Source of the DNA: Amoebidium appalachense
Lineage: Eukaryota; Protista; Ichthyosporea
Length of the DNA: 64,000 bases
Assembly: GCA_963693365.1 (NCBI GenBank)
Contig: CAVNZM010000013.1
Location: 1,761,817-1,825,816 of the forward strand
Reading direction: 5' to 3'
Shown: in pieces, positions 50,001-50,661 of the stretch
Layout: each line of letters opens with the position of its first letter
Numbering within the stretch: position 1 is the first letter of the stretch
Translations under genes and position numbers: made by a program
The notes under the pieces: generated by a model
What the model was told of the DNA's origin: nothing
The model's database searches: none
What the model saw: only the letters and a program-made list of their open reading frames with translations

Positions 50001-50661
50001 ATCCCCCAAACCGTCACGTTCCGAACTGACCCGACCGGAAAGAAAACCGTTCGATCCGGGCCAGGGTTGAAACCCGCTGTTCTGTCTGATGATTGGGCCC
50101 CCTCCACCCTCATTCCGACCTGGGGGGTTTTCGCGGGGGAACGCGAAATTTCCGGAGCGACGGTCATCATGATTTCGCGCGCGCAAGCCTGAAACTTTGT
50201 GGCCGTGGGACGATTTCTGTTTGCGCCCCCCGCCGCTGCCGCGGGTGCAATTTTCCGGGTTAAAAACCCCCCCATTGTGTTGGGCGGTGGTTTTGGGTGT
50301 CTTTTTGGCGTGAGTTGAGGCCTTTCCCCCCCCCCCCGTATTCCCTTTCCTCCTCCTCCTCCCAATCTTCCTCTGAATCGCTCGCTTCCCGTTCTTTCCT
50401 TTTCCTCCTCTTGTTCTTCTCCGGTTTTCCGTTTTCCCCTTCCGCCGCCGGTGCTATTGTACGGTTTTTGCCTCCCCGTTTTCCGGTTTCCTCGCTCCAC
50501 CCACCACCCTCCCCTTCCCCCTTGGAGTCGGATATGATAACTGGCGCATGTTGGTGACTTGCTTGTGTATTCTTTTTCGTTTCTTGGAGGGAAAGGAGCA
50601 TAGCCTGTCTTATCTGATACTCCTCAGATGTGCGATAGTCGAAGGCCTCATATCTGCTTGT
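35045..50661 (-). CDS. JARID2-like protein (UIM, disordered region, JmjN, ARID, inactive JmjC); exons 50661-49033 (one extra G in the run at ~50326-50337), 48622-48544, 47442-47369, 46023-45858, 45103-45005, 44007-43881, 42824-42755, 41777-41745, 41570-41527, 40536-40382, 39699-39617, 38825-38770, 37808-37667, 36871-36760, 36211-36098, 35119-35045
   Basis: Sixteen GT-AG exons join in phase. Jmj[38 protein letters not shown]...[42 protein letters not shown]-like: ELDIYAL...IRMIPKNA...KLQTL. JmjN-like: [12 protein letters not shown]...[32 protein letters not shown]. The 5' exons are unresolved. Confidence 0.85.
35468..35800. repeat. Representative copy of a dispersed intronic repeat family (core ...cataagcagagcccatcctcagg...gtcatc...ttggaaatatggagg...)
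   Basis: Related segments at 6925-7100 and 7318-7520 (reverse orientation) and at 31945-32030, 41082-41190, 41612-41675, 43575-43615, 45155-45272, 46903-46950, 47165-47325 and 47720-47775. Confidence 0.8.
41271..41520. repeat. Tandem ~40-bp minisatellite (AACCAAAATCACAAAACAAAAACACAAAAATCGGAAACCA), about 6 units
   Basis: Directly visible in the intron next to the donor at 41526. Confidence 0.92.
44813..45028. repeat. 108-bp tandem duplication including the 3' end and donor of exon 45103-45005 plus CCAATCACGAGC subrepeats
   Basis: 44813-44920 versus 44921-45028, with one visible mismatch. Confidence 0.92.

What the first reader, a model, noticed from the sequence alone, without database searches (positions are those of the whole stretch)
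50572..50628. N-terminal UIM resembling the H2AK119ub-reading motif of JARID2
Seen: [20 protein letters not shown] fits the UIM consensus (acidic patch, A, LS) and precedes the disordered region. Known: JARID2's N-terminal UIM (recalled as SEERVVRKVLYLSLKEFKN) binds H2AK119ub1, linking PRC1 to PRC2. Inference: PRC1-to-PRC2 crosstalk may exist in this lineage, with a more canonical UIM than in animals.
Basis: partly seen in the sequence, partly recalled or inferred. Interest (0 to 1): 0.75.

Follow-up and report, generated by a model that had tools for sequence, protein, structure and literature searches.

The report
JARID2-like ubiquitin reader outside animals
A protist, likely a single-celled relative of animals, has a spliced gene that is likely the orthologue of the animal Polycomb helper JARID2; its protein starts with a motif predicted to bind ubiquitin (likely on histone H2A) but lacks the recognisable segment that holds JARID2 on PRC2, which would make ubiquitin reading older than the animal PRC1-to-PRC2 bridge.

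Summary
The motif is real and joined to the rest of the gene. 50572-50628(-) encodes [19 protein letters not shown], residues 23-41 of a 16-exon, 1016-residue model. The window's G12 run at 50326-50337 is an error: of 5 runs covering it, 4 are one base shorter (frame joined), 1 is two shorter, none reads 12. The C-terminal half aligns colinearly with JARID2 (hhalign 98.9%), lacks the iron ligands, and shares three intron positions with animal JARID2 genes; no tree against KDM5 could be built. The helix matches myriapod, scorpion and oyster JARID2 UIMs at 8-9 of 19 positions, so 'more canonical than animals' holds only against vertebrates. The conserved segment after K116 (SUZ12-binding, recalled) and the zinc finger are undetectable, and there is only a four-residue hint of the K116 site. 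UIM and JARID2 kinship are supported; PRC1-to-PRC2 crosstalk is not shown. Binding is untested. Ten library searches found no report of JARID2 outside animals.

The parts
52735..52767 (-). Exon 1, coding part (MEGAGTRRRKP); in-frame stop two codons upstream of the ATG
   Evidence: Loose ends of contigs in X2, X11, X4, X6 match 52736-52765; frame and stop
49033..50661 (-). Exon 2: UIM and long low-complexity region (residues 12-554)
   Evidence: Both splice ends seen as loose ends in 4 runs; whole exon in one contig in X2 and X12
50572..50628 (-). UIM helix, residues 23-41 (EE..I..A...SLQE.KK)
50326..50337 (-). G12 run that breaks the frame in the window; one base too long
   Evidence: Net one base fewer in X2, X5, X12 and (by a loose end) X11; two fewer in X4; in X12 the run is interrupted and the frame is open
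49749..49760 (-). RKYA (K313): weak, post hoc candidate for a K116-like methylation site
   Evidence: Four-mer expected in 0.6% of shuffles, but a 13-residue profile of the animal site does not pick it
48544..48622 (-). Exon 3
   Evidence: Acceptor seen in contigs; donor predicted from frame
45858..47442 (-). Predicted exons 4 (47369-47442) and 5 (45858-46023): degenerate JmjN-like stretch and start of the JARID2-type linker
   Evidence: Exon model; colinear in hhalign; no Pfam JmjN hit
41745..45103 (-). Predicted exons 6-9 (45005-45103, 43881-44007, 42750-42824, 41745-41777): linker and degenerate ARID-like region
   Evidence: weak on its own (5.9 bits; 3 of 150 shuffles reach the score); no Pfam ARID hit
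38770..40536 (-). Predicted exons 10-12 (40382-40536, 39617-39699, 38770-38825): pre-JmjC helices; intron 10 shared with vertebrate JARID2
35045..37808 (-). Predicted exons 13-16 (37667-37808, 36760-36871, 36098-36211, 35045-35119): JmjC without iron ligands, then a basic tail and stop; no C5HC2 zinc finger; introns 13 and 14 shared with animal JARID2

Best explanation
The gene is likely the orthologue of animal JARID2 in a protist that is likely a unicellular relative of animals, and its predicted non-catalytic protein likely works as a chromatin reader whose N-terminal UIM helix is predicted to bind ubiquitin, likely on H2AK119ub1 nucleosomes, while no PRC2-binding arm can be recognised. Shown: the motif, its N-terminal place, its joining to the downstream frame, loss of the JmjC iron ligands, three shared introns, no detectable EDFLTFLC-type segment or zinc finger. 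Inferred: exons 4-16 (predicted; total length fits the contigs), orthology, common descent of the UIM, ubiquitin binding through Ala31 and Ser35 on the Ile44 patch, H2A as the carrier, nuclear location, and that basic stretches plus the degenerate JmjN-ARID-JmjC core add nucleosome affinity and bring in partners other than (or only loosely including) PRC2. Step odds: joined 0.97; JARID2 orthologue 0.88; binds ubiquitin 0.85; UIM homologous to JARID2's 0.75; H2Aub the target 0.55; recruits PRC2 0.3.
For: Frame. Model length 3' of exon 2 is 1639 nt to a genomic A run, against 1663-1664 nt in two contigs. JmjC exon's best PDB match is JARID2 (E 6.7e-4), then JMJ14 (5e-3), KDM5 (0.5 and worse). 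Profile of 26 invertebrate JARID2 cores scores the model 43 bits, best of 500 shuffles 0.9; hhalign 98.9%, 389 columns, colinear. Five of seven patterns drawn from JARID2 occur in the model and in 100-120 of 122 JARID2 proteins, at places where KDM5A and JMJ14 differ in the printed alignments. Three introns match animal JARID2 in position and phase. UIM: 8-9 of 19 identities to five invertebrate JARID2 UIMs; unaided alignment to full-length proteins gives 8 invariant columns; a profile of those five ranks this ORF first of 2100 window segments (12.4 bits, E 0.013). In mouse and human, JARID2 24-40 binds the Ile44 patch and H2AK119ub1 nucleosomes (PMC5133711; bioRxiv 2020.04.20.049213). H2A K119 ubiquitylation was found only in some holozoans (bioRxiv 2021.11.30.470311); RING1 and PCGF are encoded in ichthyosporeans, filastereans and choanoflagellates (bioRxiv 2020.03.18.997064).
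Against: No tree with KDM5 outgroups. On a 54-residue JmjC piece a KDM5/PKDM7-type fragment (L016) scores 45, as high as the best of 119 invertebrate JARID2 (34-45; three vertebrate-type exons 54-62). The ARID-like LDIYALSQI stretch is closer to KDM5A than to JARID2. JmjN and ARID are barely detectable and three other exons had no PDB match at E<=10. Whether KDM5 genes share the three introns was not tested. Likeness at the N-terminus is confined to the UIM helix: the upstream RPKRNI...G.W element of animals is not kept, and human JARID2 was not retrieved by the peptide, so a generic UIM could look the same. Pfam score is under the cut-off. The two basic residues after the human helix are not matched. 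One run (X4) reads two bases fewer, which would truncate at 269 residues. Absence of a motif in a fast-evolving disordered region may be divergence. The lineage is inferred, not named by any tool.
Confidence: 0.5

Rival explanations
1. Full bridge: the protein reads H2AK119ub1 and recruits or stimulates PRC2 through diverged segments, with K313 as the K116 equivalent.
For: Orthology and UIM evidence as above; RKYA at 312-315 matches the RK[FY]A of 102 of 122 JARID2 proteins and arises in 0.6% of shuffles; PRC2 and H3K27me3 exist in a choanoflagellate (PMC12572184).
Against: The 13-residue K116 profile and the EDFLTFLC-type profile find nothing above shuffles (569 of 1000; 112 of 500), although these motifs are kept in 104 and 100 of 122 animal proteins. 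The four-mer was noticed after the fact. Creolimax and Capsaspora are reported to have lost the H3K27 methylation machinery.
Confidence: 0.25
2. JARID2 orthologue, but the UIM serves another ubiquitin signal (H2B or H3 ubiquitin, K63 chains at damaged chromatin, or its own turnover) or arose separately.
For: Nearest matches by PDB and Atlas are generic UIMs (Vps27, ataxin-3, RAP80); flanks of the animal motif are not kept; 117 of 122 invertebrate JARID2 proteins in hand show no UIM, so the motif can be lost.
Against: Same N-terminal position and the SLQE.KK ending shared with four invertebrate lineages in the orthologous gene.
Confidence: 0.17
3. A dead KDM5-type paralogue that lost its PHD fingers and iron ligands and gained a UIM independently.
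For: KDM5-like ARID stretch; L016 scores as well as invertebrate JARID2 on a short piece; no tree.
Against: JARID2 is the best PDB match; JARID2-type residues along the whole core; three shared introns; no PHD between ARID and JmjC in the model.
Confidence: 0.06
4. The frameshift is real and the UIM belongs to a truncated 144- or 269-residue product of a broken gene.
For: The window reads 12 bases; X4 reads 10.
Against: X2, X5, X11 and X12 give the joined frame; X5 is from the sample flagged as a possible source of this DNA; in X12 the run is interrupted and 542 codons stay open across 25 substitutions and a 9-base insertion. The window holds 207 G or C runs of 10 or more.
Confidence: 0.02

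Closest known systems
Animal JARID2 / Jumonji (PRC2.2 cofactor; PDB 7kso_F, 6wkr_B)
   Same: N-terminal UIM at the same position, long disordered region, JmjN-ARID-JmjC order with no PHD, JmjC without iron ligands, I[DE]Y[LM]HTG and G..[IV]SE signatures, three intron positions.
   Different: No detectable EDFLTFLC-type segment, at most a four-residue trace of the K116 site, no C5HC2 zinc finger, strongly degenerate JmjN and ARID (about 24% identity over the core), upstream RPKRNI element missing; found in a protist.
Myriapod, chelicerate and mollusc JARID2 (P0103, P0109, P0131, P0147, P0148)
   Same: Canonical UIM with Ala and Ser, 8-9 of 19 identical, SLQE.K[KR] ending.
   Different: They keep the QRKF and EDFLTFLC motifs and the upstream RPKRNI element.
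Generic single-sided UIMs (Pfam PF02809; Vps27, ataxin-3, RAP80)
   Same: Acidic start, hydrophobic-x-x-Ala-hydrophobic-x-x-Ser helix.
   Different: Single copy at the N-terminus of a JmjC-family chromatin protein; score below Pfam's cut-off.
KDM5 / plant PKDM7 demethylases (KDM5A, JMJ14)
   Same: JmjN-ARID-JmjC superfamily core; one ARID stretch is KDM5A-like.
   Different: No His-x-Glu...His triad, no PHD, JARID2-type residues at most diagnostic sites.

Membership tests
UIM (PF02809) | Acidic start, conserved Ala and Ser four apart on one helix | tested here: met
   E24, E25, I28, A31, S35, E38; unique pattern hit; helix E24-K41
UIM (PF02809) | Reaches Pfam's curated cut-off (21 bits) | tested here: not met
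   13.3 bits; Strigamia JARID2 gets 13.6 and three other JARID2 UIMs are not listed
UIM (PF02809) | Binds the Ile44 patch of ubiquitin | not testable with these tools
   Needs a binding assay; the complex prediction could not be queued
JARID2 | JmjN-ARID-JmjC in order, no PHD | tested here: met
   hhalign 98.9%, colinear; JmjN and ARID weak on their own and without Pfam hits
JARID2 | JmjC lacks the iron ligands | tested here: met
   S898, Y900 or N901, F986 at the His, Glu, His sites of KDM5A
JARID2 | Closer to JARID2 than to KDM5 in a tree | tested here: inconclusive
   No tree possible. For. Against or neutral:
JARID2 | Shared intron positions | tested here: met
   3 of the 6 introns in residues 796-998 match animal JARID2 loci; KDM5 genes not examined, their different intron positions are recalled only
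JARID2 | N-terminal UIM | tested here: met
JARID2 | K116 site (QRKF) that activates PRC2 through EED | tested here: inconclusive
   Profile negative (569 of 1000 shuffles); one RKYA four-mer
JARID2 | EDFLTFLC-type segment (SUZ12 binding recalled; residues 119-450 stabilise the PRC2 core, PMC11832421) | tested here: not met
   present in 100 of 122 animal proteins
JARID2 | C-terminal C5HC2 zinc finger | tested here: not met
   Predicted stop 18 residues after the JmjC match; contig length fits; oyster P0148 also shows none in Pfam
PRC1-PRC2.2 crosstalk system | RING1/PCGF, EZH/EED/SUZ12, H2AK119ub1 and H3K27me3 in the same organism | not testable with these tools
   No genome held
KDM5 / PKDM7 | His-x-Glu...His triad and PHD finger | tested here: not met

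The most novel reading that the evidence does not exclude
JARID2 predates animals, and its oldest job was reading PRC1's H2A ubiquitin through the N-terminal UIM; the SUZ12-binding and K116 segments that make it a PRC2 cofactor were added later on the animal line. This protein would be a living intermediate: a PRC1-mark reader without the PRC2 arm, the mirror image of insect Jarid2, which keeps the PRC2 arm and shows no UIM.
Probability: 0.3. Interest if true: 0.85.

Novelty: new variant of a known kind. Interest (0 to 1): 0.64.

Why it matters
How and when PRC1 and PRC2 became coupled is open: PMC10638273 finds the two complexes evolved uncoupled, and its authors left JARID2, AEBP2 and PCL for future work because the orthology was too complex (peer-review file); PMC12572184 says PRC2 recruitment and PRC1's role are unknown in choanoflagellates. 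A JARID2 orthologue with the UIM in a unicellular relative of animals would date the gene and its ubiquitin-reading module to before animals, and its missing PRC2 segments give a direct test of the order in which the bridge was built. It also corrects a gene that the assembly breaks, and shows that the vertebrate UIM is the derived form.

Tried and rejected
No whole genome held. No RNA holder listed on record; spliced contigs were recognised only by their loose ends. Runs X1 and X3 gave no usable cover, X6 none at the G run. DNA search of the genome index gave only chance matches. The JmjC exon found no relative in the 90% protein collection, 26 repeat-protein artefacts among the 50% representatives, unrelated Atlas clusters, two fungal matches without sequence, and nothing in five protist and one invertebrate genome, including the same-class genome B17; these exon queries did not even find KDM5 there, so the blanks say nothing. 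KDM5 outgroups: pattern scans gave one 70-residue fragment (L016) and two chance matches. Three exons had no PDB match. The UIM-ubiquitin complex prediction was never run because the queue was full. A first exon-3 donor (48557) gave a stop and was replaced. The intronic stretch 47780-48260 has ORFs on both strands but no room in the transcript length and no copy in the window. A viral KDM4-like gene as described in PMC11244446 was rejected: those carry the JmjC alone. Three look-ups of earlier scan findings were empty. PMC7613034 and PMC7502728 are not held; their preprints were read instead.

Full report
OBSERVATION. The stretch 50572-50628 on the minus strand encodes [19 protein letters not shown]. 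A UIM-consensus pattern hits only this place in 114,701 residues of six-frame translation (0.02 expected from 50 shuffles). Pfam lists only UIM for the 29-residue peptide (13.3 bits, E 0.079, cut-off 21), while the 57- and 171-residue queries gave no UIM hit. The only PDB matches at E<=10 are the Vps27 and ataxin-3 UIM structures; Atlas neighbours are UIM clusters scoring 0.86-0.89, leads only. AlphaFold with six sequences gives one helix over E24-K41.

IS IT JOINED? In the window a G12 run (50326-50337) ends the UIM frame at residue 144. Eight of the 24 listed runs were laid, all as contigs. Five cover the run. X2 (one 3626-base contig over the whole stretch; near-identical, so it may share this DNA's source) and X5 (same sample as a run flagged as possible source) lack one base. 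X11 (same sample as X2) has a loose end that fits one base fewer. X12, a diverged copy with 25 substitutions and a 9-base insertion, is one base shorter with the run interrupted, and all 542 codons stay open. X4 lacks two bases, which would stop at residue 269. None reads 12. X1, X3 and X6 do not cover the run. Contigs in X2, X11, X4 and X6 end at 50662 and 49032 with loose letters that match 52736-52765 and 48592-48621, so they are spliced; X5 and X12 run on into intron. The first exon's ATG (52767) has an in-frame stop two codons upstream, so the motif is residues 23-41.

GENE MODEL. Sixteen exons, 1016 residues, all GT-AG. Only the first two introns are read-supported; exons 4-16 are predicted from frame and homology, and two donors (48543, 42749) are weak. 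The model gives 1639 nt from exon 3 to a 46-base genomic A run, against 1663-1664 nt in the X2 and X6 contigs, which leaves little room for further exons.

WHAT THE CORE IS. The exon-13 peptide's best PDB match is JARID2 (E 6.7e-4), then JMJ14 (5e-3), then KDM5 (0.5 and worse). A JARID2-motif scan gave 15 loci, all 15 JARID2-like; one of them fetched 120 of 326 hits, all arthropod where named, and a second search added two proteins: 122 in all. A profile from 26 of these scores the model 43 bits (best of 500 shuffles 0.9); hhalign gives 98.9% over 389 columns, colinear from JmjN to JmjC, 24% identity. JmjN-ARID alone is weak (5.9 bits; 3 of 150 shuffles reach the score). The iron ligands of KDM5A are replaced (S898, Y900 or N901, F986). 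Of seven patterns tried, five JARID2-type ones occur in the model and in 100-120 of 122 JARID2 proteins; one JARID2 pattern missed the model, and the active-site WHxE pattern is in neither. KDM5A and JMJ14 differ at these places in the printed alignments. The patterns were written after seeing the alignment. Three of the six introns in residues 796-998 match animal JARID2 in position and phase: LDTM|AYYW against EVE|QE[FY]W (L004, L014); the phase-2 intron in the Trp of RAW|F against IW|Y (8 of 15 loci); FQ|VAP against M|[VI].P (L002, L004, L008). That vertebrate KDM5 genes have introns elsewhere is recalled, not tested. Against: no tree; a KDM5/PKDM7-type fragment scores 45 on a 54-residue piece, as high as the best of 119 invertebrate JARID2 (34-45), with vertebrate-type exons at 54-62; one ARID stretch is KDM5A-like.

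THE UIM IN CONTEXT. Five of 122 invertebrate proteins (centipede, millipede, two scorpion-type, oyster) carry EE.[DE]LK[KR]ALYASLQE.K[KR]; the window peptide matches them at 8-9 of 19 positions, and MAFFT placed it on that motif in full-length proteins with 8 invariant columns. The canonical Ala is therefore shared with invertebrates and the vertebrate form is the derived one. The other 117 show no UIM; most are insect proteins that begin just before the QRKF motif, some are N-terminally incomplete. The likeness stops at the helix: the upstream RPKRNI...G.W element is not kept, and human JARID2 was not retrieved by the peptide. Common descent rests on position in an orthologous gene more than on score.

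THE PRC2 ARM. JARID2 activates PRC2 through K116me3 on EED and residues 119-450 stabilise the core. QRK[FY] and the EDFLTFLC-type motif are in 104 and 100 of 122 animal proteins. In the model neither profile scores above shuffles (569 of 1000; 112 of 500). One four-mer, RKYA at 312-315, matches the animal RK[FY]A (0.6% of shuffles, post hoc). The zinc finger is absent. PRC1-to-PRC2 crosstalk is therefore not shown.

LINEAGE. No tool names the organism. The index rates a protist genome with no phylum or family label as same class and an invertebrate as same domain only, which argues against an animal. Ichthyosporea is such a class, but so are others (recalled: Filasterea, Choanoflagellata). A unicellular holozoan, probably ichthyosporean, is my inference.

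MECHANISM. Most likely a catalytically dead chromatin reader: the helix presents Ile28, Ala31, Leu34 and Ser35 to ubiquitin's Ile44 patch (established UIM behaviour; untested here), most likely on H2AK119ub1 as in JARID2, with basic stretches and the core adding nucleosome affinity. H2A K119 ubiquitylation was found only in some holozoans and RING1/PCGF are encoded in unicellular holozoans; the ichthyosporean Creolimax lacks EZH. Whether the PRC2 arm was never gained or was lost here cannot be told from one gene.

LITERATURE. Ten searches. JARID2 + ichthyospore + PRC2 gave 0 papers; JARID2 + holozoa and JARID2 + choanoflagellate + PRC2 + evolution gave only PMC10638273, whose four JARID2 mentions do not address its range and whose peer-review file defers the question. 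Seen as passages only: PMC10638273 (plus two supplement searches), PMC5133711, bioRxiv 2020.04.20.049213, PMC12572184, PMC11244446, PMC8788455, PMC6474313, PMC6390904, bioRxiv 2020.03.18.997064, bioRxiv 2021.11.30.470311, PMC11832421; the rest as listings. Most subscription papers are not held, and the supplements of bioRxiv 2021.11.30.470311 (demethylase orthogroups), which I could not see, may already list non-animal JARID2 members. That JARID2 is usually taken as animal-specific is my recall.

VERDICT. Observation confirmed; interpretation partly supported. A new variant of a known kind: likely JARID2 orthologue outside animals with the ancestral-type UIM and no recognisable PRC2 arm. Interest 0.64.

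Noticed in passing
P0132 against P0147 and P0131: One scorpion JARID2 record lacks exactly the 23 residues holding the UIM that its close relatives carry; possibly a skipped exon that switches ubiquitin reading off.
   Followed up: no
P0027-P0146: Insect Jarid2 proteins in hand begin just before the QRKF motif and show no UIM, while myriapod and chelicerate ones have it: a likely loss on the insect line.
   Followed up: partly
window 49311-50009: Run X12 has no substitution in these 700 bases but 21 in the next 564; looks like a shared haplotype block rather than protein-level selection.
   Followed up: no
window 47150-47310, 35454-35595, 41068-41191, 7412-7442: Dispersed intronic repeat, about 83% identical between the two longest copies.
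   Followed up: partly
window 44890-44925 and 45000-45035: The end of exon 6 with its donor site is duplicated about 108 bases into the intron.
   Followed up: no
window 41280-41520: Intronic T-rich minisatellite.
   Followed up: no
window 598-1770 (-): 391-codon ORF that looks like the end of a non-LTR retroelement reverse transcriptase (my reading); no Pfam hit at E<=1.
   Followed up: no
window 2270-5960 (+): Histone stem-loop binding protein gene (SLBP_RNA_bind E 1e-12), used as the lineage probe.
   Followed up: partly
window 54014-60814 (+): Secreted 5'-nucleotidase gene with a hydrophobic tail, head to head with the JARID2-like gene.
   Followed up: no
window 13078-13863 (-), 22217-27576 (+), 32900-34040 (-): Cyclin-family exon, MYND-finger gene and leucine-rich-repeat gene.
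   Followed up: no
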